A DNA stretch of 57,224 nt, filler included, from Sphacelaria rigidula (Eukaryota), in assembly GCA_964200075.2 (NCBI GenBank). It is 6 parts of 6 records of this genome, joined end to end, with 100 filler letters (N's around TTAATTAATTAA, not from the genome) between each part and the next. Parts side by side here need not be neighbours in the genome. Positions count along the whole stretch, not along the records: positions 1 to 9,455 come from CAXNAA020008459.1; 5 more parts are not named here. One strand, written 5' to 3'. Positions within the stretch are counted from its first letter, which is position 1; every line of letters starts with the position of its first letter. Shown in pieces: positions 546 through 49,321 of this stretch. A program made the translations under genes and the position numbers. The notes below the pieces were generated by a model that ran no database searches, had not been told where the DNA came from, and was given only the letters and a program-made list of their open reading frames with translations.

Positions 546-1073
546 GTAGACGTAACCCACAGGGTGCTATTTTTCCACGTGTGTATTGCTCGCCCAATAT
601 ACATTGACCTTCTCTCATGCCATCATATTGCTTGCCCAATATATATTGACCACCCGACGCGTCGATTTATTGAGCGGGCAATATATATTACATATTGTAT
701 TGTCCAGGGTGTCGTATTTTGTACAAATACATACCTGCACCTTGCACTGGTCGTGCGTGCTATTATACCTGCACAGAGTACCCATCCCTGGTCGTTCAGT
801 ATAGAACGGCCACATGGCCAGCCAGCACTGCCTTGCGAACTTGGCTTTGTTACCCCCTCCACACACCGCGTAACAGTTGTGTCACCCCGCGACTCAGACC
901 TTCACCCGGCCTTGAACTTGGTCCTTCAGTGCCGAGTATCAGTCTGAGGTATGGCAGGACCAACCGCCAGTCCCTGAGGCAAAAGCTTCCCTCAGCGACC
1001 GCATGCACAGGTAGTAGCAAGCCTTCTTCAGCCAACCCAAGTGTTGCTGATTTGAACTTGACCACATCGGATC

Positions 1074-1545
1074 TGCGACGATTTATAGGCAACCGATTAG
1101 ACTACCGTACAGTCAGCGCTGACTGTACGGTAGTCTAATCGTTTGCCTACAAATCGTCACAAAAGTTAGTCGCGCGGGTTCGATCCCCGTCACTTTCACT
1201 CCGAGGAGGGCGACTCCCCTTGCCAGCGCTGTTCAACTGCTCGCGCTCACGGTATCGGTCTAATGTTGCCACACGTATCCATTCGGAGTTACTTGTCTCC
1301 TCCACTTATTTCCAGAGTGTGTGCACTGGGGTCCGTAGCAGTCAGCTCGGGGATTGGACTTTCTCCCATCACCCTCATTTTTTCACCGGAGGTAGGGTTT
1401 CCCTCTTTTTTTTCAAAGAAAGTGCGTCCGATGGGAATCGAACCAACGACTAACTTTTGTGACGATCTATAGGCAACCGATTAGACTACCGTACAGTCAG
1501 CGCTGACTGTACGGTAGTCTAATCGGTTGCCTATAGATCGTCATA
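1074..1545. mobile_element. 472-bp non-coding insertion element with 88-bp palindromic ends and tRNA-like A/B boxes; GATC target-site duplication
   Basis: Palindromes at 1074-1161 (3 mismatched pairs) and 1458-1545 (1 mismatch), both centred on AGC|GCT. GATC at 1070-1073 and 1546-1549. The empty site ATCGGATCATGTAAT is present in the paralogous Gypsy copy near 48292-48306 (minus strand). Confidence 0.9.
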
Positions 1546-2418
1546 GATCATGTAATTCCCAATCAGTTGGATCGAGCTCCTTCCCCAAGATTTTCAACAC
1601 GCACGGACCTAACTTCGGCCGGTTCAAATAACAACCGCCCCAACATATCTTCGGCTATATGACCCACCAGTCAAGCTTGCCTACGGAAAGCAGCCCACAA
1701 TTTCGCTCCGTCATGCCCCGATGCTGACCCCATCCACGCAACTGGACGCAGTTGTGATTTCATCCAAAAATGTTTTGAAAGTTCCCCGACCTTTGTCACG
1801 GCGAAAAAGAAAGCCCCGTAGGCATGCCCCCAAGGACGCATGCGCATCATCACGTACACCTATTTTGAGCGGAAATTCTCGACCTCAATCTCTTCAAAAT
1901 GCGACGACTTTGAGTTCGACGGCTTCATCAAGTATCCCGGAAGAAACAAAATCAAGTAATTCTGACGGCACTACTTCTTCAATCGACGGCTCCAGCCCCG
2001 CACAATCTGAATTCCCCTTGGGCGGTGATCCCTGTTATTCGAAGACGATTATGTACGGAATCGCCAATGGCCACTCTGATCGTGCCACACCTTGACATAC
2101 TATACCGTCCACCCCCTTCTCTGGTGAGAGATCTGACCCACCTGCGGATCACCCGCCGTGCGTTTTTGCTGTCAGCCCCGCTGATCCTGACCAATTTACC
2201 TTGCCGGAATATGGTCCGGATCTCGTTGGCGGTAAAGTGTCTGTGGATCCGGCCGCTTTTACTACACGCGTTGCGATCCATTCTGGTCCAAACGCTACCA
2301 CGCCTACGAAATGTGTATCCTCGTTGGACAGCGGAAGCCCGCAAACATTTATTCGAGAATCAACATGGAAACACATGAAACAGACTGGCGCTGCTACTGT
2401 AGCTTGCGAAACCACCAC

Positions 2419-3599: not shown

Positions 3600-4930
3600 A
3601 CGGATCTTGGGCATTGAAAAACGCTACCCTTTGAGGTTACCCTCTAACCCGGCGTCTCGCCGATTTCTTCTCGGCCATACCGAACAAACCCAATCCTTTT
3701 ACCAAGAAAGTAACGCCATCTTGGATGCGTATTTGGGAGCGGGATTAATACAACTTCCTCCTCTCCTTCGGCCTCGCCACTCGTGGTCGTCCCCAAAAAG
3801 GATGGAAACATAGACATAACCATGAATTACCAATGGTTGAACCGTGTCACTGTAGTCGGTAAGCTTCCAATTCCCCGCATTGACCAAGTCTTCGACTCCT
3901 TGAGCGAAGGAAAAATATTCAGCACCTTCGACCTCGCTTCTGGAATTTTTCAGAATGCTATACGCCCTGACACAGTCCCATTGACGCCCTTTTGTACCTC
4001 GTCCGGACTCCATGAGTGGCTTCGAATGCCACAAGGCGCCGCCACTGCCCCGGGATGCTTTCAACGCTTAATGCAATGCGTCACCGAGGGCCTCGAGCAC
4101 ATCATCATGTACCTGGATGACGCTATCGCTTTCGATGCCTCACCTATTGCATATATCCGCATTCAACGATAATTTCTCTCTCGCCTACGCACGAACGATT
4201 TGAAATTGTCTCCATCCAAAGCTCGCCTTGGTGCGACTGACTTGGATTTCTTGGGGCATTCCATTTCGCCAGCAGGCCTGCATCCGGATACAAACAAAGT
4301 CAAGGTGATGACTGATTTGCCGATGCCAACTCACATTTCTCAATTTCGCTCATTGATGGACAGGCTATCCTGCTACCGCAATTTTTTGCCGAATTCATCT
4401 AAACTGATTCGTCCCCATACTGAGTTCCTCAAGAAAGGAGCCGTGTTTTCCTTCACAACCGAAATGGAGAATATCACCCGCGAATCACTCAAGACGATTA
4501 CCGAAAAGCCGGTACTCTATTTTCCTGATTGGGAGGCAGTACAAGATGGCTCCCGCCTTTTCCAACTCCGCACTGACGCGAGCACAAAAGGCTTTGGAGG
4601 AGTTGTGAATCAACCTCAGGTTGATGGCTCCGTCCGACCCATCCTCTATATCAGCCGCGCTACCCTGCCCAACGAGGCCAGTTGGAGCTTGCTGGACCTG
4701 GATTGCGGAGTGATCACTTGGGCCATGAGGCGCCCTCGACAACATCTGTTTCACGTGCCCTTTGAGATCTATGCAGATCACGGAGCACTCGAACAACTCG
4801 CCAAGTTTGGCGAACACAACCCGCGTGTACAACGATGGTTGGAGTTTCTAACAGCATACCAGTATACCACTTAACACCGTCCCGGCAAAACCGACGGGAA
4901 TGCCGATCTTCTTTCTCGCTTACCCCTGCC
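3600..4930 (+). pseudogene. Reverse transcriptase / RNase H pseudogene of the Gypsy element
   Basis: ORF pieces 3783-4172 (YLDD) and 4200-4874 (LDFLGH, TDAS) lie in the same frame, separated by an in-frame TAA. Further frameshifts occur upstream. Confidence 0.9.
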
Positions 4931-7887: not shown

Positions 7888-9010
7888 CAGGCTGGGCCAG
7901 GCTACAAGCGGATTTGTACTTTGCGGGCGAATTCGCATTCTTTTTCTTGGAGTTGGCCAGTGAAATTTTGTACAGGCAATGAACACGGCGTGAAGTACAA
8001 CTGTCTGTGAGGTCCCGAAGGTTTTTTTCTCTTCTTCATGTGTTAAGGGCATTTAACTGAAACCTCAAAACTGATTATTGCCCTCGACTCGTGAAAAAAA
8101 CAGTTCGAGACCTCACAGACAGCTGTACTTCATGCCCTGTTGATTGTCCATACCAAATTTCACCGCCCAACCCCAAGAAACAAATTGGGAATAATTTATC
8201 TTCGGGAAACCGGGCCGGCGGGGATTTGGAACAGCATTTTGCAGGCCGTTTATCGGCCCACGTTTGGTGTTTGTGGGTTGAGACTTTGTGCGGGACCCCG
8301 CTAGGTCACGATGAATCGAAGAAATTTGTGAGATTAGGTTTGATTTTATTCCTTCATTGATCGAGGGCGTTTGAGTATGGTAACGGCCATTTTTTTACGA
8401 GAAAGCCCGAAACTCTCATGAAAACAAAATGAAGGCTTATTTTTTCAATCTGCATCTCTGTCGTTTTGCATACCAAGTTTCAATTCACAATTCCAAAATT
8501 GAGCTGAAGAATTAAGATAAAGCCTAAGACTAGTAATATTTTCTCCTCGAATCTCCCCTAAAAAAACGAAAAAAATGAAAAGAAACGAAAAAAATCGACA
8601 AAGTCGTGGTTTTAATTTCATCATGCACTAGCGGTTCTCCGTACTAAATGTCGTAGCACAACTCCTAAAAACTGAGACGCGATATCCAGGTGTATGTAAT
8701 CTAGTGCCTTTGCTCGTAATATGCTGGTTTTAGTATGAAAACGTATGTGCGCCGTATTCCGACTCCGATAGCGAATTAGGTGAAGGTGAGGGGATCTATC
8801 GTCTTCGCGTGCTCCCGGGACGGTCCACAACAAAAATCGTCATCATCCGCTTGAAAGGTTTTGGTGTGGACGCTATTTTTGCCACGTATAGAAATTAATC
8901 GACATGGAGTTCAGTCAACGATAAGAGATTGGCCCAAATTTTTGAGCAGATGGGCGCCTTCCCCTTGATCAGACGATCAATACGATGTGCGGATCACGGC
9001 CCAACTCATC
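7888..9010 (+). mobile_element. Diverged, 3'-truncated copy of the Tc1/mariner-like non-autonomous element at 38590-39869
   Basis: Starts TA|CAGGCTGGGCCAGG..GCGGATTT. Collinear similarity blocks, e.g. 8215-8320 vs 38915-39025, 8623-8690 vs 39368-39434, and 8920-9008 vs 39715-39810. Confidence 0.75.
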
Positions 9011-9455: not shown

Positions 9456-9555
9456 NNNNNNNNNNNNNNNNNNNNNNNNNNNNNNNNNNNNNNNNNNNNT
9501 TAATTAATTAANNNNNNNNNNNNNNNNNNNNNNNNNNNNNNNNNNNNNNNNNNNN
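9456..9555. other. Artificial contig spacer (N44-TTAATTAATTAA-N44)
   Basis: Exactly 100 bp, with a palindromic six-frame stop linker in the centre. Confidence 0.98.
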
Positions 9556-11829: not shown

Positions 11830-13458
11830 CTATCTCTTTCGCAGGCGGGATGAGGCCGCGGACACGTGACCAGGCGAGGAGGACACGTTCAGTTCTAACT
11901 TGACGTCGGTTCCGTCGTCTGAAGACATAACATCATCCCCAACTGCGACGTGAAGTACCGGCTGCACTTGTGCCGTCTGCCGAAGCCGCTTCGTGTTCCT
12001 TCCATTGGTGATGCTGTTAGCACAACTTCTGCTTCTGATAGTCCTGCTGGAGCCGCCAAGGCCCATGCTGTCGCAACAACTGGATCCCGCACTAACTCGT
12101 TTGTTAGTTCGTATCCCCTCGAAACCTCGCGCAGATGCAACTGTCTCCTCCATTTTGATTTCCATGCGCATCTCTGCCCCACCTATTGCAACCGTATCTG
12201 CGACCCCCGAGCCGGAGGACTGTCTCGAGGAGGCAGGCGACGTGGTTGTGGAACCTGCAACCCTTTGCCTACGGCGCATCGTACGCGGGTCGCAGCGAGG
12301 ATCAGCGTTACGACCATCATCGTTCGTGTTGGGACCGGCATTCGGTGGGTGACCGGATGTTTCACCATCATCATTCATACCGACGCCCATTTCTCCCGTG
12401 ACGAAATCATCACTCGCTGGGATGTTTTCTTGGATACCTCCTGTGGGATCAGACCGTATGACCAAGTCATGTGCAGCGCCACGGTAGGTGTACCCGTGCT
12501 CCCGAACCAGGTTAGAACGATGCTGCGAGGCGCATTCATCGCCGTCCACAAGTAGCATGCCTGCGCGGGCGTGTGCGGCGCCGAACTCCGCTATCCTACC
12601 CCCAATTGCATCGGATGATGGTCGTGAGGAGCGGACTTCCCTGCCGCGCCGCCCTCGTACCACATCGACCATGCCTGCACCGGAGTGTATGGCGCAGAAC
12701 TCCGGCTTCCTGCTACCGGCTGCACCGAACGATGGGTATTTGGAGCAGCCCTTTTTGCCGCACCGCTTGTTCCTCAAATGGACCATGCCCGCTCGGGCGT
12801 GTGTGGCGCAGAACTCCGCTTGCCTGCTGCCGGGTGCGCCGAAGAACGGTTGAGTGGAGCAGCCCTCCTCGCCGCATCGCTTGTTCCTGACATCGACCAT
12901 GCCCGCTCGGGCGTGTGCGGCGCAGAACTCCGCTGTTCTGCTACCGGCTGCACCGAACGACGGTTGAGTAGAGCAGCCCTCCTCGCCGCATCGCTTGCTC
13001 CTGACATTGACCATGCCCGCTCGGGCGTGTGCGGCGCAGAGCTCCGGCTTCCTGCTACCGGCTGCGCCGAACGATGGGTATTTGGAGCAGCCCTCCTTGC
13101 CGCACCGCTTACTCCTGACATCAACCATGCCCACTCGGGCGTGTGTGGGGCAGAACTCTGCTTTCCTGCTGCCGGGTGTGCCGAAGGACGGATAAGTGGA
13201 GCAGCCCTCCTCGCCGCATCGCTTGCTCTTCACATCGACCATGCCCGCTCGGGCGTGTGCGGCGCAGAACTCCGCTGTTCTGCTACCGGCTGCACCGAAC
13301 GACGGTTGAGTGGAGCAGCCCTCCTTGCCGCACCGCCTGCTTATCACATCGACCATGCCCGCCCGCGCATGTTTGGTGCAGACTTCTGCCTTCCTGCTAC
13401 CCGCTATGCCCAATGATGCTCTCGTGGTGCAACTCGTGTGGGTGCAAATTCCAGGCAT
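11830..13458 (-). CDS. EsV-1-7 cysteine-rich repeat protein (about 542 aa, apparently single exon)
   Basis: Intact ORF with first ATG at 13458 (MPGIC...). Seven 38-aa repeats of the form CxxxGC..PSFG..GSR.AEFC..HARAGMVDV plus one degenerate repeat, matching the EsV-1-7 motif. Low-complexity C-terminus. Confidence 0.88.
   Translation of the reverse strand: MPGICTHTSCTTRASLGIAGSRKAEVCTKHARAGMVDVISRRCGKEGCSTQPSFGAAGSRTAEFCAAHARAGMVDVKSKRCGEEGCSTYPSFGTPGSRKAEFCPTHARVGMVDVRSKRCGKEGCSKYPSFGAAGSRKPELCAAHARAGMVNVRSKRCGEEGCSTQPSFGAAGSRTAEFCAAHARAGMVDVRNKRCGEEGCSTQPFFGAPGSRQAEFCATHARAGMVHLRNKRCGKKGCSKYPSFGAAGSRKPEFCAIHSGAGMVDVVRGRRGREVRSSRPSSDAIGGRIAEFGAAHARAGMLLVDGDECASQHRSNLVREHGYTYRGAAHDLVIRSDPTGGIQENIPASDDFVTGEMGVGMNDDGETSGHPPNAGPNTNDDGRNADPRCDPRTMRRRQRVAGSTTTSPASSRQSSGSGVADTVAIGGAEMRMEIKMEETVASARGFEGIRTNKRVSAGSSCCDSMGLGGSSRTIRSRSCANSITNGRNTKRLRQTAQVQPVLHVAVGDDVMSSDDGTDVKLELNVSSSPGHVSAASSRLRKR
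12555..13450 (-). repeat. 114-bp tandem coding repeat (EsV-1-7 units)
   Basis: Recurring GACCATGCCCGCTCGGGCGTGTG at 114-bp spacing. Confidence 0.9.
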
Positions 13459-13506
13459 CCCGTTCACAACCGCACCAGAGAAGGGACAAGGCCGCCGTAG
13501 TCCCCA

Positions 13507-13532
13507 CTGCTGCTGCTGCTGCTGCTGCTGCT
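13507..13532. repeat. (CTG/CAG)n microsatellite just upstream of the EsV-1-7 ATG
   Basis: About eight CTG units. Confidence 0.85.
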
Positions 13533-19010: not shown

Positions 19011-19110
19011 NNNNNNNNNNNNNNNNNNNNNNNNNNNNNNNNNNNNNNNNNNNNTTAATTAATTAANNNNNNNNNNNNNNNNNNNNNNNNNNNNNNNNNN
19101 NNNNNNNNNN
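19011..19110. other. Artificial contig spacer
   Basis: N44-TTAATTAATTAA-N44. Confidence 0.98.
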
Positions 19111-28564: not shown

Positions 28565-28664
28565 NNNNNNNNNNNNNNNNNNNNNNNNNNNNNNNNNNNN
28601 NNNNNNNNTTAATTAATTAANNNNNNNNNNNNNNNNNNNNNNNNNNNNNNNNNNNNNNNNNNNN
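28565..28664. other. Artificial contig spacer
   Basis: N44-TTAATTAATTAA-N44. Confidence 0.98.
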
Positions 28665-28974: not shown

Positions 28975-29435
28975 AAATACTCAAGTATTTACTCTACTCG
29001 ACGTTTGAGTAGGTCGAGTACAGTCTCAAATACTCTACTCAATTTTCGAGTAAGCACTCTCAGTGATACTCGAGTACAGAGTACCACTTGAGTATCACCT
29101 CAATACTCTACTCAAATTTTGAGTAGGTCGAGTACGGCCTCGAATACTCTACTCGAAATTTGAGTAGGTTGAGTATGGTCTTAAATACTCTACTCAAAAT
29201 ATGCATAAGTACTCCCAGGAATACTCGAGTATAGAGTATCACTTGAGTATCACCTCAATACTTTACTCAAAATTTGATTAGGTCGAGTATGGTCTCAAAT
29301 ACGCTGCTCAAATTTCGAGTACGTTGAGTATGGTCTCAAATACTCTATTCAATTCTTGAGTAGGTTGAGTACGACCTCAAATAATCTACCCAAATTTTGA
29401 GTAAGCACTCTCAGTAATGCTTGAGTATAGAGTAC
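28975..29435. repeat. Tandem array of about 41-bp units with interspersed longer units
   Basis: Consensus GAGTAGGTCGAGTACGGCCTCAAATACTCTACTCAAATTTT. Confidence 0.85.
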
Positions 29436-29924
29436 CCCTGACAGTTGGCGACTTCGTGAGGTCAGTTCATAGGCTATGTTGAATGCATGGGCGAACGATG
29501 TCCATCAACTAGATGGACGGCATGACATCACAGCCAACAAGGAGTAGAAGCGAATGATGGCCATGAAAAAATCAAGAAGCGTGCAGGTGAACGAACCCAC
29601 TTGCCCCGGCGCCCCATCTCATCAGCCCCCAACCACAGCAGTTCGTACTCGATACCTCTTAGCGCCTTCGATATCACTTTCAGTACAGAGCGCTACTCAT
29701 CATCATCGAGTAATCGAGTAATCGAGTAGTCGAGTAGTCGAGTAGTTATTATCAAAATGAGCGACTCTACTGGCCACGGTTAGACGAGGCAGTTTGATCT
29801 TGAATCAACACTCATCATCGGTGGGCAATTCTAGGAATACTTCGGTATTTCCTCTAGCCGAGTTTGAGTATCTTGCGTACGAACTTGAATATTGAAGTTG
29901 AGGTTATAGGTTTTTGGTACCTCG

Positions 29925-30435
29925 GATGCGGCCTCAGATACTCCACTCAAATTTTGAGTAGGTCGAGTACGGCCTCCGATACTCTACTCAACGTTCGAGT
30001 AGGCCGAGCACGGCCTCCGATACTCTACTCGAAGTTTGAGTACGTTGAGTACGGCCTCGAATACTCTACTCAAATATTGAGTCAGCACTCTCAGTGATAC
30101 TTGAGTATAGAGTATAACTCGAGTATCACCTCAATACTCTACTCAAAGTTTGAGCATGTCGAGTACGGCCTCAAATACTCTACTCAAATTTTGAGTAGGC
30201 TGAGTATGATTTCAATTACTCTACTCAAATTTTGATTAGGTCGAGTACGACCTCAAATACGCTACTCAAATAATGAGTAAGCACTCTCAGTGATACTCGA
30301 GTACAGAGGATCACTTGGGTATCACCTCAATACTCTACTCAAATTTTGAGTAGGTCGAGTATGGTCTCAAATACTCTACTCAAATTTCGAGTACGTTGAG
30401 TACGGCTCCCAATACTCGACTCGAATTTTGAGTAC
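29925..30435. repeat. Second tandem array of the same 41-bp unit, same orientation
   Basis: Same consensus as 28975-29435. Confidence 0.85.
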
Positions 30436-32753: not shown

Positions 32754-32984
32754 TGTTAAGATACCGTCAGCGCTGGCTGTTTAGCTCAGCAGTCAATCGG
32801 TAACTTAATAAAAGCTAGATACTTGGGTTCGAATCCCTGTGCGAGCATAAGTATTCTTCGATGTCGCGAGGATGCGGTCGAACGAAACGGAAAACACTGA
32901 GAATTTGACTTCGATACCGATTGACTGCTGAGCTAAAAAGCCAGCGCTGACTGTTCAGCTCAGCAGTCAATCGGTAACTTAACA
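32754..32984. mobile_element. 231-bp element with TGT...ACA termini, AGCGCT-centred palindromes and tRNA-like A/B boxes
   Basis: Ends TGTTAAGATACCG and CGGTAACTTAACA. Flanks CAGAC / CGGAC. Palindrome 32913-32978. TAGCTCAG at 32782 and GGTTCGAATCC at 32826-32836. Confidence 0.75.
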
Positions 32985-38118: not shown

Positions 38119-38218
38119 NNNNNNNNNNNNNNNNNNNNNNNNNNNNNNNNNNNNNNNNNNNNTTAATTAATTAANNNNNNNNNNNNNNNNNNNNNNNNNN
38201 NNNNNNNNNNNNNNNNNN
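38119..38218. other. Artificial contig spacer
   Basis: N44-TTAATTAATTAA-N44. Confidence 0.98.
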
Positions 38219-38589: not shown

Positions 38590-39460
38590 CGAGCTGGGCC
38601 AGCCGAGAAGCGGATTTGTAGTTTGGAGGCGAATTCGAATTTTTTTACTCAGAGTTGGACACTGAAAATTGGTGTGGATAATCAACAGGGCATAAAAAAC
38701 ATAGATATATGCCGGGTTTCAGATTTTTTTTTCTGGCGATTTAGCAGCATTTTACTAAAACCTGAAAACTGCTTATTGCCCTTGACTCATGGAAAAAAAC
38801 TTTTCGGGACCCGGTATATATATGTATATATATTATGCCCTGCTGATTGTCCATGCCAAATTTCGGGGTCGGACTCCAAGTAAGGAATAAAATTTGCGAT
38901 TTCGCCTGTTGAAGCCCGGGCCGGTGGAATTTCGGAACAATATTTTTCAGGCCGTTTACCGGTCCACGTTTGGTGTTTGTGTGTTGAAACTTTGTGCGAG
39001 GCCTCGCTAGGTCCTGACGAACCACGAAAAAGGGATCAGGTTGGTTTTGATTTATTTTGTTCTGCTGGTTTAGGGCGTTTTAGTATGGTAAGAGCCACTT
39101 TTTTACGAGAACGTCCGAACCTCTCCCCCCCCCCCCAAATGAAGACACATTTTTTCCCTTTAGCATACCTCGTTGGTTGTCCATGCTAAGTTTCAAATCA
39201 CAATTCTAAAAATTGAGGGAAATAATGAGATATGGCCAAAGAGCAATGTCCATTTCTCCTCAAAACTCCCCTTAAAGCACGAAAAAAAATGAAAAAAAAT
39301 CGTAAAACAGGTAAAAAGCTGTTTTTTAGACTTTATTATGACTAATGTGCGGAAATAATAGTAATAAATGCAGTAGCGGTCCTCCGTACGAAATTTCATA
39401 GCACAACTCTGAAAAACTGAGACGCGATATCCAGATTTAGGGCATCTAATGCCTCTGCTC

Positions 39461-39509
<49 letters not shown>

Positions 39510-39869
39510 TTCAGTATGGAGCATTATGTGCGTCATATCTCGAGGTAGATTACGAATCAGATAAAGGTGAGGGTATCTATCGTCTCCCCGTGCTCCGGGG
39601 AAGATCCACATAAAAAATCGTCATCATCCGCTGAATGTATCGTGCGGTGTTTAATATAGATTCTAGTGTTGACACCATCTCCTTACGGTATAGGAATGAC
39701 TAGACATGGGATTTAACCGACGAGAAAATATTGACCCAGATATTTGAGCATATGGGCACCTCCCTCTTGAGTAGACGATGAATACGATATGCGGATCACG
39801 GCCAACTCGTCTGTGTCGATGAGATATTGCTTTGAGAGCTTAAATCCGTTTTTAGGCTGGCCCAGCTCG
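38590..39869. mobile_element. Non-autonomous Tc1/mariner-like DNA transposon (1.28 kb)
   Basis: 28-bp TIR CGAGCTGGGCCAGCC..A.CGGATTT (3 mismatches) flanked by TA on both sides. No ORF. Internal (TA)n near 39464-39504. Paralogue at 7888-9010. Confidence 0.8.
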
Positions 39870-47671: not shown

Positions 47672-47771
47672 NNNNNNNNNNNNNNNNNNNNNNNNNNNNN
47701 NNNNNNNNNNNNNNNTTAATTAATTAANNNNNNNNNNNNNNNNNNNNNNNNNNNNNNNNNNNNNNNNNNNN
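47672..47771. other. Artificial contig spacer
   Basis: N44-TTAATTAATTAA-N44. Confidence 0.98.
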
Positions 47772-47831: not shown

Positions 47832-49321
47832 CAAGGGGGATCCAGATTGTGCGGGGCTGAAGTCGTCGATTGAAGAAGCAGTGACGTCAGAAACATTTGA
47901 TTTTTCTTCTTCCATGATACTTGATAGGGCCGTCGTGCTCAAAGTCGTCGCATTTTGGAGAGATTGAGATCGAGGTTTTCCGCTCGAAGGAGGTGTACGT
48001 GATGATGCGCGCGCGTCCTTGGGGGCATGCTTACGGAGCTTCTTCTTTCGCCTTGATAATGGTCGGGCAACTTCCAAAACATTTTGGGATGATACTACAA
48101 CTGCGTCCAGTCGGGTAGATGGGGTCAGCATCGGGGCATGATCGAGCGATACTTCTGGGCTTTCCGTAGGCAAGCTTGGCTGGGGAATCATAGCCGAAGG
48201 TGATTTGGGGTGGGTGTTATTAGAGTAGGCCAAGGGTAGTTCCACGCGTGTTCAAAATCGCGGGGAAGGAGCTCGGTCAAACTGATTGGGGATTACATGA
48301 TCCGATATGGTCAAATCAGCAACACTTGGGTCAGCTGAAAAAGGCATGATACTACCTGTGCGTGCGGTCGCTGAGGAAATCCTTTGCCTCAGGGACTGGC
48401 AGTCGGTGCTTCCACATCTGACTTATACTCGGTACTGAAGGACCAAGTCCAGGGCCGAGTGTGGTTTGAGTCGCGGGGTAACACAACTGTTACGCGGTGT
48501 GTGGAGGGATGGAGACGGGGGTCGATATGAACGGCCGTAAGTTGCACTCCTGCATAGTGCCGGGGGAGCTGGGCGAGAAATCTTTGTCGCAGGCTCTGCG
48601 GGCTGTGTTGAAAGGTGTGTGGAGGGTGGAGATGGGGGTCGATTTGAACGGCCGTCTGTTGCGCTTCTGGATAATGCCGGAGGAATCGGGTGAGCAATCT
48701 TAGTCACGGGCTCCGCGGGCTATGCTGAAACAATCTTCGCAAGTGCTGTCGGCGGCCCGGAAGACTTCAGAACGCCGACGTCGGCACGTCATGGGCCTAT
48801 GCGATCCGTAGTGAAGGTACCAGGGTTTCTGGTGTTGGGACTCGAGCTTTGTGTCGGTGCCGTCCGCTGGTGTCTATCAGCGGGTTGTTCATTGTCGCGA
48901 AAAGAATCATCTCTTGCGAGCTTGCATTATTGTTGTTTTGTCGGCGATCGCGATTAAAGCGATTGTTGCCTCGTTGGTTCGAATGATTGCGATAATTTCG
49001 ATTCGGTTGGCGATAGTCGCGCATTCGTTTTTTCTATCGGCGCCACGCGGTTTCATTGTCCTGCAGTACAGGGTTCATGAGATCAAAGGCATTGATACAT
49101 GCGCTGTCGCAGTCCCACATACTGTGGCCTTGAACACTACAGTTGATGCAACCGTTGGCATGACCGTTGAAGGCGTTACGTCTAGCAGGAGACGTAAGAA
49201 GTGGGTTCCACAAATGGGGATCGTCCTCAATAAATGCCGCCATTGAAGTCAAATAAACACCATCTCAAGTTTTTTCGGAGAACGGCCAACCATCGAAACT
49301 CGCACTAGATGCACCTCTGTC

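What the first reader, a model, noticed from the sequence alone, without database searches (positions are those of the whole stretch)
1074..1545. Small mobile element whose two ends are each an 88-bp palindrome overlapping convergent tRNA-like Pol III promoters
Seen: a clean 472-bp insertion with a GATC TSD, whose empty site is visible in the paralogous Gypsy copy near 48300. Both ends are near-identical 88-bp self-complementary sequences (consensus TGTGACGA...AGC|GCT...TCGTCACA), so they are direct and inverted repeats at once. The inner arm of each carries an A-box-like TAGTCTAATCG, followed by a B box at tRNA-like spacing: GGTTCGATCCC at 1177-1187 on plus (46 nt after the A box) and GGTTCGATTCC at 1434-1444 on minus. 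T-runs occur in the interior. Known: TGT..ACA ends with 4-5-bp TSDs are produced by retroviral-type DDE integrases (LTR elements, Ginger/TDD transposons), while A/B boxes typify tRNA-derived SINEs. Inference: this is a hybrid non-autonomous element. It could be a micro-LTR/TRIM with hairpin LTRs or a Ginger-like MITE, and it could be transcribed convergently into dsRNA. I do not recognise it as a described class.
Basis: partly seen in the sequence, partly recalled or inferred. Interest (0 to 1): 0.78.

Follow-up and report, generated by a model that had tools for sequence, protein, structure and literature searches.

The report
Palindrome-ended small transposon, tRNA-like boxes
A 472-base mobile DNA element has landed in an old retrotransposon copy in what looks like a brown-alga genome; it belongs to a high-copy family, each of its ends is an 88-base palindrome carrying tRNA-promoter-like motifs, and this layout fits no described transposon class exactly.

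Summary
Bases 1074-1545 are a clean 472-bp insertion flanked by GATC. A paralogous copy at 48299-48302 and 12 and 13 contigs of two public runs show the empty site. Each end is an 88-bp palindrome (41/44 and 43/44 pairs). It therefore covers both B boxes.

The family is real and dispersed. About 2000-2600 contigs per run were laid in three runs. One of these runs lacks the host retrotransposon yet shows about 100 different flanks on each side. This rules out an assembly artefact.

The tRNA likeness is limited to A/B-box motifs at tRNA spacing. ARAGORN, the Rfam tRNA model and folding find no tRNA.

My best reading (about 0.5) is a non-autonomous cut-and-paste element. It would be moved by a retroviral-integrase-like DDE enzyme, given the TGTGA...TCACA ends, long inverted repeats and 4-bp duplication.

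A described hybrid of integrase-type ends with a tRNA-like Pol III promoter already exists (Helenus/TRIMp3, 2024). This element fails its PBS and PPT tests.

Pol III transcription and double-stranded RNA remain untested. I could fetch no further copies, so duplication length, target preference and the autonomous partner stay open.

The parts
1070..1073 (.). Left copy of the GATC target-site duplication
   Evidence: Flank/paralog alignment shows a single GATC at the empty site. Empty-site joints are seen in 12 and 13 contigs of X1 and X4.
1074..1191 (+). Left terminal inverted repeat, about 118 bp (palindrome plus 30 nt with the B box)
   Evidence: blastn: 1077-1191 against 1430-1542, 115 nt, 91.3%. 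Gapped alignment.
1074..1161 (.). Left 88-bp palindrome, centre at 1117|1118, 41/44 pairs
1131..1142 (+). Inward-facing A-box-like motif (TRGYNNANNNG-type) in the inner arm
   Evidence: Regex scan. In the runs most contigs read G at 1142, which makes the motif end in GG.
1177..1187 (+). B-box motif GGTTCGATCCC, 46 nt after the A-box start
   Evidence: No variant is listed inside it for X1/X4. A 1-nt deletion at 1181 is seen in 58 X6 contigs.
1192..1429 (+). Unique, non-coding, asymmetric interior
   Evidence: No self-complementarity: local score 10, shuffles 12.4 +/- 2.8. In X4 and X6, contigs leave the sequence at 1230-1233 (35, 55 and 36 contigs), so other family members have other interiors.
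1378..1383 (+). T6 run, the first possible Pol III terminator for a plus-strand transcript
   Evidence: Function is inferred, not tested.
1406..1413 (+). T8 run
1430..1545 (-). Right terminal inverted repeat
1434..1444 (-). B-box motif GGTTCGATTCC, 44 nt after the A-box start at 1488
1477..1488 (-). Inward-facing A-box-like motif of the right end
1458..1545 (.). Right 88-bp palindrome: 1460-1543 perfect, 43/44 pairs overall
1546..1549 (.). Right copy of the GATC duplication
48299..48302 (-). Empty target site (single GATC) in the paralogous repeat copy

Best explanation
This is one copy of a high-copy family of non-autonomous cut-and-paste (class II, MITE-like) elements. It encodes nothing.

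Each end is a terminal inverted repeat of about 118 bp. The outer 88 bp of each repeat are a palindrome, that is, two inverted copies of the 44-bp terminal sequence.

A DDE enzyme supplied in trans is inferred to bind the TGTGA...TCACA termini. That enzyme would belong to the retroviral-integrase-like group: a Ginger-type transposase or an LTR-retrotransposon integrase. It would cut the target with a 4-base stagger, which gave the GATC duplication.

The inner arm plus the next 30 nt carry A- and B-box motifs at tRNA spacing. These were probably inherited from a tRNA-derived sequence that became part of the repeat. They may let RNA polymerase III start near each palindrome centre, but transposition would not need this.

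Shown: the insertion, the duplication, the repeats, the multi-copy dispersed family and the motif positions. Inferred: the enzyme class, a DNA intermediate, and any promoter activity.
For: - Clean insertion with an empty paralogous site and a 4-bp repeat, plus 12 and 13 empty-site contigs in X1 and X4.
- Symmetry is inverted over about 118 bp, beyond the 88 bp that are also direct.
- No ORF with a family match: the flanking and overlapping frames gave 0 Pfam families. The interior is only 238 bp.
- Family size and spread: 1966, 2104 and 2615 contigs were laid in X1, X4 and X6. X6 has essentially no cover of the host flanks. It has 101 contigs running into unlike sequence before 1087 and 110 behind 1532. 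Their printed consensus keeps the 14 terminal bases and then loses agreement (0.58 and 0.56 over 30 letters).
- Termini are shared while interiors differ: loose ends at 1230-1233 in 35, 55 and 36 contigs. This is the usual pattern for deletion derivatives of DNA transposons.
- Ginger elements have TIRs of 40-270 bp, 4-bp TSDs and TGTNR ends (PMC2836005 passages). TSD lengths of the integrase-like group are summarised in PMC10045372.
Against: - Only one filled/empty pair was available, and GATC is a palindrome, so a 2-bp or 0-bp duplication is not excluded.
- The window copy's own ends are TGCGA and, on the reverse strand, TATGA.
- No autonomous partner was seen. No further copy or terminal motif occurs in the 57-kb window.
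- The main text of the curated Ectocarpus TE survey lists no Ginger superfamily (0 occurrences of the word; Table 1).
- GATC is neither of the Ginger target preferences reported (CCGG/CCGT, RTATAY).
- Other superfamilies also make 4-bp duplications: PiggyBac (passage of PMC10045372) and Sola (recalled, not seen in a call); both are listed for Ectocarpus.
- A plain cut-and-paste model does not by itself explain why all arms carry the same variant at arm position 8 within each data set.
Confidence: 0.5

Rival explanations
1. TRIMp3/Helenus-like miniature LTR retroelement. The two 88-bp palindromes act as LTRs, a tRNA-like internal promoter gives a Pol III transcript, and a Gypsy or Copia integrase inserts the cDNA with a 4-bp duplication.
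For: - Direct 88-bp repeats with TG...CA-type ends and a 4-bp duplication.
- The host genome carries Ty3/Gypsy-type RT and RNase H nearby.
- Helenus elements are 311-1263 bp, have a tRNA-like sequence in the LTR and make 4- or 5-bp TSDs (PMC10886601: abstract and sections 3 and 4).
- The A-box position puts a Pol III start near the palindrome centre, which would split it like U3 and R-U5 (inference).
Against: - No polypurine tract abuts either repeat (0.40 purines).
- The 18 nt after each repeat are tRNA-sense, so they are not complementary to a tRNA primer.
- The sequences inside the two repeats are inverted copies of each other, which an LTR element does not need.
- The B box lies outside the direct repeat.
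- T6 and T8 runs would stop Pol III before the 3' repeat.
- The two 'LTRs' differ at 6 of 88 positions.
Confidence: 0.17
2. The ends are rebuilt from one arm at each round of copying by fold-back synthesis. This could work by hairpin priming and off-centre resolution, as in parvovirus inverted terminal repeats, or by a self-primed Pol III transcript. The palindromes would then be a product of the mechanism rather than a binding-site layout.
For: - The architecture (palindrome plus a further inverted 30 nt at both ends) resembles hairpin-ended replicons; this comparison is recalled, not tested.
- Arm position 8 is A in 4 of 4 arms of the window copy. It is T in the 3 arms visible for X6 and G in the 2 arms visible for X1/X4.
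- Of 6 differences between the two palindromes, 2 sit at mirror positions (offsets 10 and 79) and are complementary. This keeps the right palindrome perfect while the majority of contigs read T at 1467.
Against: - The duplication and defined ends point to an ordinary DDE integration.
- Arm-to-arm gene conversion in cruciforms or hairpins would give the same co-variation with no new mechanism.
- The mirror pair has roughly a 5-10% chance under independent mutation (my estimate).
- The left palindrome has 3 unpaired positions.
- No replication or nicking protein is linked to the family.
Confidence: 0.1
3. The 88-bp palindrome is itself a minimal TIR-TIR element, and the 472-bp unit is a composite of two such elements moved by their outer ends.
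For: Each palindrome has complete TGTGA...TCACA-type ends. In X6 the palindrome bins have far more contig depth than the interior, although the tool warns that depth cannot rank parts.
Against: - Inverted homology continues 30 nt or more inward from both palindromes.
- Neither palindrome has its own duplication: GATC lies outside and AAAG/CTTT inside.
- Contigs in X1, X4 and X6 run from the palindrome into the B-box region (table 8).
Confidence: 0.08
4. tRNA-derived SINE, or a dimer of SINEs, moved by a LINE.
For: A/B-box motifs at tRNA spacing. An A8 run on the minus strand lies 9 nt after the right tRNA-like unit.
Against: - Long terminal inverted repeats with precise ends, and a short fixed duplication at a clean empty site.
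- No 3' tail at the element border.
- No tRNA detected by ARAGORN or Rfam.
Confidence: 0.04

Closest known systems
Ginger1 / Ginger2(TDD) DNA transposons and their MITEs (PMC2836005; passages seen; MITE category in PMC5199201)
   Same: TIRs within 40-270 bp, a 4-bp target duplication, TGTNR-type termini (family consensus TGTGA), and a palindromic 4-bp target like CCGG.
   Different: The target here is GATC, not CCGG/CCGT or RTATAY. Each TIR is internally a perfect-type 88-bp palindrome and carries tRNA-promoter-like boxes. No transposase was found. No Ginger is listed in the Ectocarpus TE survey main text.
Helenus / TRIMp3, and Cassandra (PMC10886601; abstract and sections 3 and 4 read)
   Same: A small non-autonomous element with integrase-type ends, a 4-5-bp duplication and a tRNA-like A/B-box sequence associated with its terminal repeats. 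Its size (472 bp) lies within the 311-1263 bp range.
   Different: No PBS and no PPT. The B box lies outside the direct repeat. The overall symmetry is inverted and the repeats are palindromes. Helenus was reported from fungi, animals and one plant, not from stramenopiles.
Hairpin-ended replicons such as parvovirus inverted terminal repeats (recalled, not taken from a call)
   Same: Each end is a long palindrome followed by a short extra stretch that is also inverted between the two ends.
   Different: This is a 472-bp non-coding chromosomal insertion with a target duplication. It has no Rep-like gene and no evidence of single-stranded replication.
tRNA-derived SINEs (SINE2)
   Same: Internal A- and B-box motifs at tRNA spacing, followed by T runs.
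   Different: Terminal inverted repeats, a fixed short duplication, no tail, and no detectable tRNA fold.

Membership tests
MITE / non-autonomous class II TIR element | Terminal inverted repeats at the exact borders of the insertion | tested here: met
   115-nt inverted HSP at 91.3%, reaching the borders defined by the empty site.
MITE / non-autonomous class II TIR element | Fixed short target-site duplication | tested here: inconclusive
   GATC on both sides of this one copy, single in the paralog. Because GATC is palindromic, 4, 2 or 0 bp all fit, and no other copy with both flanks could be read.
MITE / non-autonomous class II TIR element | Small, non-coding, many dispersed copies | tested here: met
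   472 bp with no Pfam match in overlapping frames. 1966-2615 contigs were laid per run, and about 100 different flanks were seen on each side in X6.
MITE / non-autonomous class II TIR element | Autonomous partner sharing the termini | not testable with these tools
   No genome is held. There is no other copy in the window. 0 true hits in 3 viral and 2 metagenome scans.
Ginger superfamily | TGTNR...YNACA termini | tested here: met
   The inner arms and the X6 terminal consensus read TGTGA. The window's outer ends are degenerate (TGCGA; TATGA on the reverse strand).
Ginger superfamily | Target preference CCGG/CCGT (Ginger1) or RTATAY (Ginger2) | tested here: not met
   The target is GATC in the single site available. 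Preferences are as reported.
Ginger superfamily | Gypsy-integrase-like transposase in full-length copies | not testable with these tools
   No full-length copy is accessible.
TRIM / Helenus (TRIMp3) | Two direct LTRs with TG...CA ends | tested here: met
   88-bp direct repeats, 82/88 identical: TG..CA on the left and TG..TA on the right.
TRIM / Helenus (TRIMp3) | Primer-binding site complementary to a tRNA just inside the 5' LTR | tested here: not met
   On both orientations the 18 nt after the repeat lead into a sense-orientation B box. The host's tRNA set was not available for a full test.
TRIM / Helenus (TRIMp3) | Polypurine tract just inside the 3' LTR | tested here: not met
   The adjacent 15 nt are 40% purine on both orientations.
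TRIM / Helenus (TRIMp3) | tRNA-like sequence with boxes A and B inside the LTR | tested here: not met
   The A box is inside the 88-bp repeat, but the B box lies 16 nt beyond it.
tRNA gene / tRNA-derived SINE head | Recognisable tRNA sequence and structure | tested here: not met
   ARAGORN finds 0 genes at default and at 90% threshold; only intron-containing calls appear at 80% or below. The Rfam tRNA model does not appear among matches at E<=10. No cloverleaf: z -1.8 and +0.2.
tRNA gene / tRNA-derived SINE head | A and B boxes at 30-60-nt spacing | tested here: met
   46 and 44 nt start to start.

The most novel reading that the evidence does not exclude
The family may represent a so far undescribed kind of small eukaryotic mobile element. 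Its terminal palindromes would be regenerated from a single arm at every round, by fold-back copying or hairpin resolution. Its inward-facing tRNA-type promoters would start Pol III transcripts at the palindrome centres, giving convergent RNAs that feed either its own copying or small-RNA silencing. It would then be a 'Pol III-promoter DNA transposon' counterpart of TRIMp3, and the first Pol III-driven repeat known in brown algae.
Probability: 0.1. Interest if true: 0.85.

Novelty: new variant of a known kind. Interest (0 to 1): 0.5.

Why it matters
Brown-algal transposons are still poorly classified. The curated Ectocarpus survey leaves 51 'DNA/Unknown' and 94 'Unknown' families and reports no repeat with a proven Pol III promoter (main text; supplements not seen).

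A high-copy family with integrase-type ends, 88-bp palindromic termini and tRNA-promoter-like boxes could help here in three ways:
- It would give a name and a testable mobilisation route to part of that unknown fraction.
- It would extend the recently proposed idea of Pol III-promoter-bearing terminal-repeat elements (TRIMp3) to an inverted-repeat element and to stramenopiles.
- It would provide thousands of near-perfect 88-bp hairpins as potential sources of small RNAs, cruciforms and assembly breaks.

If the arms prove to be homogenised at each round, the family would be a handle on a new copying mechanism.

Tried and rejected
**Copies elsewhere: none fetched.**
- No whole genome is held for this window.
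- Three exact-pattern scans of viral contigs gave 0 hits.
- Metagenome scan 1 gave 0 hits.
- Metagenome scan 2 gave 4 loci, L001-L004. They share only the 21-mer itself and look like unrelated GC-rich sequence, so I rejected them as chance matches.

**Within the window.**
- No other copy, even with word size 7 and E<=1.
- Of 8 matches to the terminal motif at up to 3 mismatches, 4 are the element's own arms and 4 are 3-mismatch noise (3.7 expected).
- No significant self-complementarity in the interior, so the element is not one large fold-back.

**tRNA tests.**
- Searches were negative.
- The ARAGORN calls at 80% and 70% thresholds need 14-208-nt 'introns', so I disregard them.
- The Rfam hits to microRNA precursor families (best 36.8 bits against a gathering score of 142) reflect only the hairpin shape.

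**Read depth.** Depth peaks at 1174-1241, 1310-1343 and 1412-1445 in X1/X4. I considered a more abundant relative that shares these parts, or expression, but the tool states that summed contig depth cannot rank parts, so I draw no conclusion. The letters just outside the X6 terminal consensus agree at roughly chance level, so I read no target preference from them.

**Earlier notes of this scan.** Nothing was found by sequence, by place or by a first word search. A second word search returned only bacterial tRNA-end palindrome items that do not bear on this element.

**Literature.**
- Searches gave nothing relevant.
- I found no paper describing a palindrome-ended, tRNA-box-bearing inverted-repeat element. 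This rests on searches only.
- Repbase, Dfam and the supplements of PMC12477816 and PMC10886601 could not be seen and may already hold the family.
- The 4-bp duplication of Sola is recalled from memory; I did not find it in a call.

Full report
**What is in the sequence**

Bases 1074-1545 carry two 88-bp palindromes, at 1074-1161 and 1458-1545. Their arms pair at 41/44 and 43/44 positions. As single strands they fold at -61.9 and -77.6 kcal/mol. None of 200 shuffles folds as well (z about -16 and -17).

The two palindromes are 82/88 identical to each other.

blastn pairs 1077-1191 with 1430-1542 (115 nt, 91.3%). A gapped alignment finds weak similarity to about 1200/1414. The element is therefore a 118-bp terminal inverted repeat, a 238-bp interior and a second 118-bp repeat. 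The interior has no self-complementarity (local score 10, against 12.4 +/- 2.8 for shuffles).

**It is an insertion**

The left flank up to 1073 and the right flank from 1546 continue without a break in a paralogous copy on the minus strand. There they meet at 48299-48302 with a single GATC (83-85% identity).

Public runs show the same empty site. 12 contigs of X1 and 13 of X4 join 1069 to 1546, skipping 476 bases with 4 shared letters.

One caveat applies. GATC is itself a palindrome, so this single filled/empty pair fits a 4-bp duplication, a 2-bp one or none at all, depending on how many bases belong to the ends.

The host sequence lies 2.6 kb upstream of RVT_1 (3714-4172) and RT_RNaseH (4173-4874) frames. 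An EsV-1-7 cysteine-rich repeat protein frame at 11830-13530 (E 2e-112) fits a brown-alga-like genome.

**It is a dispersed, high-copy family and not an artefact**

I laid four coded runs at 80% likeness or more.
- X1, X4 and X6 placed 1966, 2104 and 2615 contigs on the 1001-bp stretch. X8 placed 12.
- X6 has almost no cover of the host flanks but covers 1072-1547. Contigs of 2281, 2070 and 664 bases run through the left palindrome into the interior (table 8).
- In X6, 101 contigs continue into unlike sequence before 1087 and 110 behind 1532. Their printed consensus keeps a 14-base terminus and then loses agreement (0.58 and 0.56 over 30 letters). That terminus is the same on both sides as a reverse complement.

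The element therefore sits in roughly a hundred or more different contexts, in an organism that lacks this host retrotransposon. The palindromes are also reproduced in independent assemblies.

Other members leave the window sequence at 1230-1233 (35 contigs in X4; 55 and 36 in X6). Termini are thus shared while interiors vary.

I could not fetch any copy for alignment:
- No genome is held.
- Three viral-contig scans gave nothing.
- The two metagenome scans gave nothing or chance bacterial matches.
- The window holds no second copy.

**The tRNA likeness**

The B-box motif occurs at 1177-1187 (+) and 1434-1444 (-). There are 3 matches in the window against 0.62 expected. Because both lie in the inverted repeat, they count as one ancestral event.

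An A-box-like string occurs once in each of the four arms. The two inner ones face inward, 46 and 44 nt upstream of the B boxes. If the right-hand unit is counted back from the B box, the A-box letters fall on the canonical tRNA positions (my count from the sequence).

Beyond the boxes there is no tRNA:
- ARAGORN finds none at default or 90% stringency.
- The Rfam tRNA model is absent even at E<=10.
- The units do not fold as cloverleaves (z -1.8 and +0.2).

Conservation of the boxes is mixed. Most contigs read G at 1142, which improves the A box. No variant inside the B boxes is listed for X1/X4, although 96 substitution rows and 20 indel rows were not shown. In X6, 58 contigs (depth 1937 of 3418) lack one base inside the left B box.

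T runs that could stop Pol III lie at 1378-1383 and 1406-1413 on the plus strand. On the minus strand the only one is at 1164-1161. Promoter activity and convergent transcription are therefore possible but untested.

**What it most likely is**

Three features are the signature reported for Ginger DNA transposons and shared with Gypsy integrases:
- ends of the TGTNR type (family consensus TGTGA);
- long inverted repeats;
- a 4-bp duplication at a palindromic target.

Ginger elements have TIRs of 40-270 bp, 4-bp TSDs and TGTNR ends (PMC2836005 passages). TSD lengths for the whole integrase-like group are given in PMC10045372.

Add the inverted symmetry, the conserved ends with variable interiors and the lack of coding capacity. 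The best reading is then a MITE-like, non-autonomous cut-and-paste element moved in trans by an integrase-like DDE enzyme. My confidence is about 0.5.

Several points weigh against this reading:
- The GATC target matches neither reported Ginger preference.
- No partner element was seen.
- No Ginger is listed in the curated Ectocarpus TE survey (main text only). That survey lists Sola and PiggyBac, and it leaves 51 DNA/Unknown and 94 Unknown families.

**The LTR-type rival**

A described class already combines integrase-type ends with a tRNA-like Pol III promoter. This is Helenus, grouped with Cassandra and Ajax as TRIMp3 (PMC10886601). The present element meets the repeat, end and duplication criteria but fails three others:
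- No polypurine tract lies next to either repeat (40% purines).
- The sequence inside each repeat is tRNA-sense rather than complementary to a primer.
- The B box lies outside the direct repeat.

The two internal borders are also inverted copies of each other, which reverse transcription from an LTR does not produce. I therefore do not file the element as Helenus, though it may work partly like one. I give this rival 0.17.

**An unexplained pattern**

Arm position 8 is A in all four arms of the window copy. It is T in the three arms visible for X6 and G in the two arms visible for X1/X4.

Inside the window copy, two of the six differences between the palindromes are a complementary mirror pair (offsets 10 and 79). 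This pair keeps the right palindrome perfect although most contigs read T at 1467.

The arms thus seem to change together. Arm-to-arm gene conversion in hairpins or cruciforms would explain this. A bolder possibility is that each palindrome is rebuilt from one arm at every round of copying. I give that about 0.1. It can be tested only with an alignment of many copies.

**Verdict**

This is a real, abundant, non-autonomous element with integrase-type ends and tRNA-promoter-like boxes, and its palindromic-end architecture matches no described family that I could test. I rate it a new variant of known kinds (Ginger-type MITE or TRIMp3) rather than a new class.

The enzyme, the intermediate and the promoter function all remain inferences. 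Repbase, Dfam and the supplementary TE libraries, which I could not see, may already list the family.

Noticed in passing
window 11830-13530 (-), overlapping tandem repeats 12556-13418: A 566-aa open frame made of EsV-1-7 cysteine-rich motifs (PF19114, 7 stretches, E 2e-112), encoded by units of about 114 bp repeated in tandem. This is a family typical of brown algae and their viruses.
   Followed up: partly
window 3714-4874 (+): RVT_1 and RT_RNaseH frames of a degenerate Ty3/Gypsy-type retrotransposon downstream of the insertion. No intact LTR pair was seen in the window self-comparison.
   Followed up: partly
window 28989-30434: A block of tandem or interleaved direct repeats at 76-86% identity. 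Its nature was not examined.
   Followed up: no
window 7891-9010 and 38593-39811: A 1.2-kb direct repeat pair at 68% identity, probably two old copies of another repeat family.
   Followed up: no
window 32826-32836 (+): A third B-box-type match (GGTTCGAATCC) outside the element. ARAGORN finds no tRNA in the window.
   Followed up: no
window 9456-9555, 19011-19110, 28565-28664, 38119-38218, 47672-47771: Ten 44-base runs of N in five regularly spaced pairs. One pair lies just beyond the end of the paralogous empty-site copy and may hide where that homology really ends.
   Followed up: no
window 1174-1241, 1310-1343, 1412-1445 (runs X1, X4): Summed contig depth is 10-100 times that of the palindromes and of the host repeat. 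This could reflect a much more abundant relative sharing these parts, diverged palindromes in the main subfamily, or RNA in runs of unknown kind. The tool warns against ranking by depth.
   Followed up: partly
window 1464 onward (run X4): 19 contigs share the first 7 terminal bases of the right repeat and then continue with a diverged arm. Its printed consensus, read on the other strand, again holds an A-box-like string. This suggests subfamilies with different arms but the same layout.
   Followed up: no
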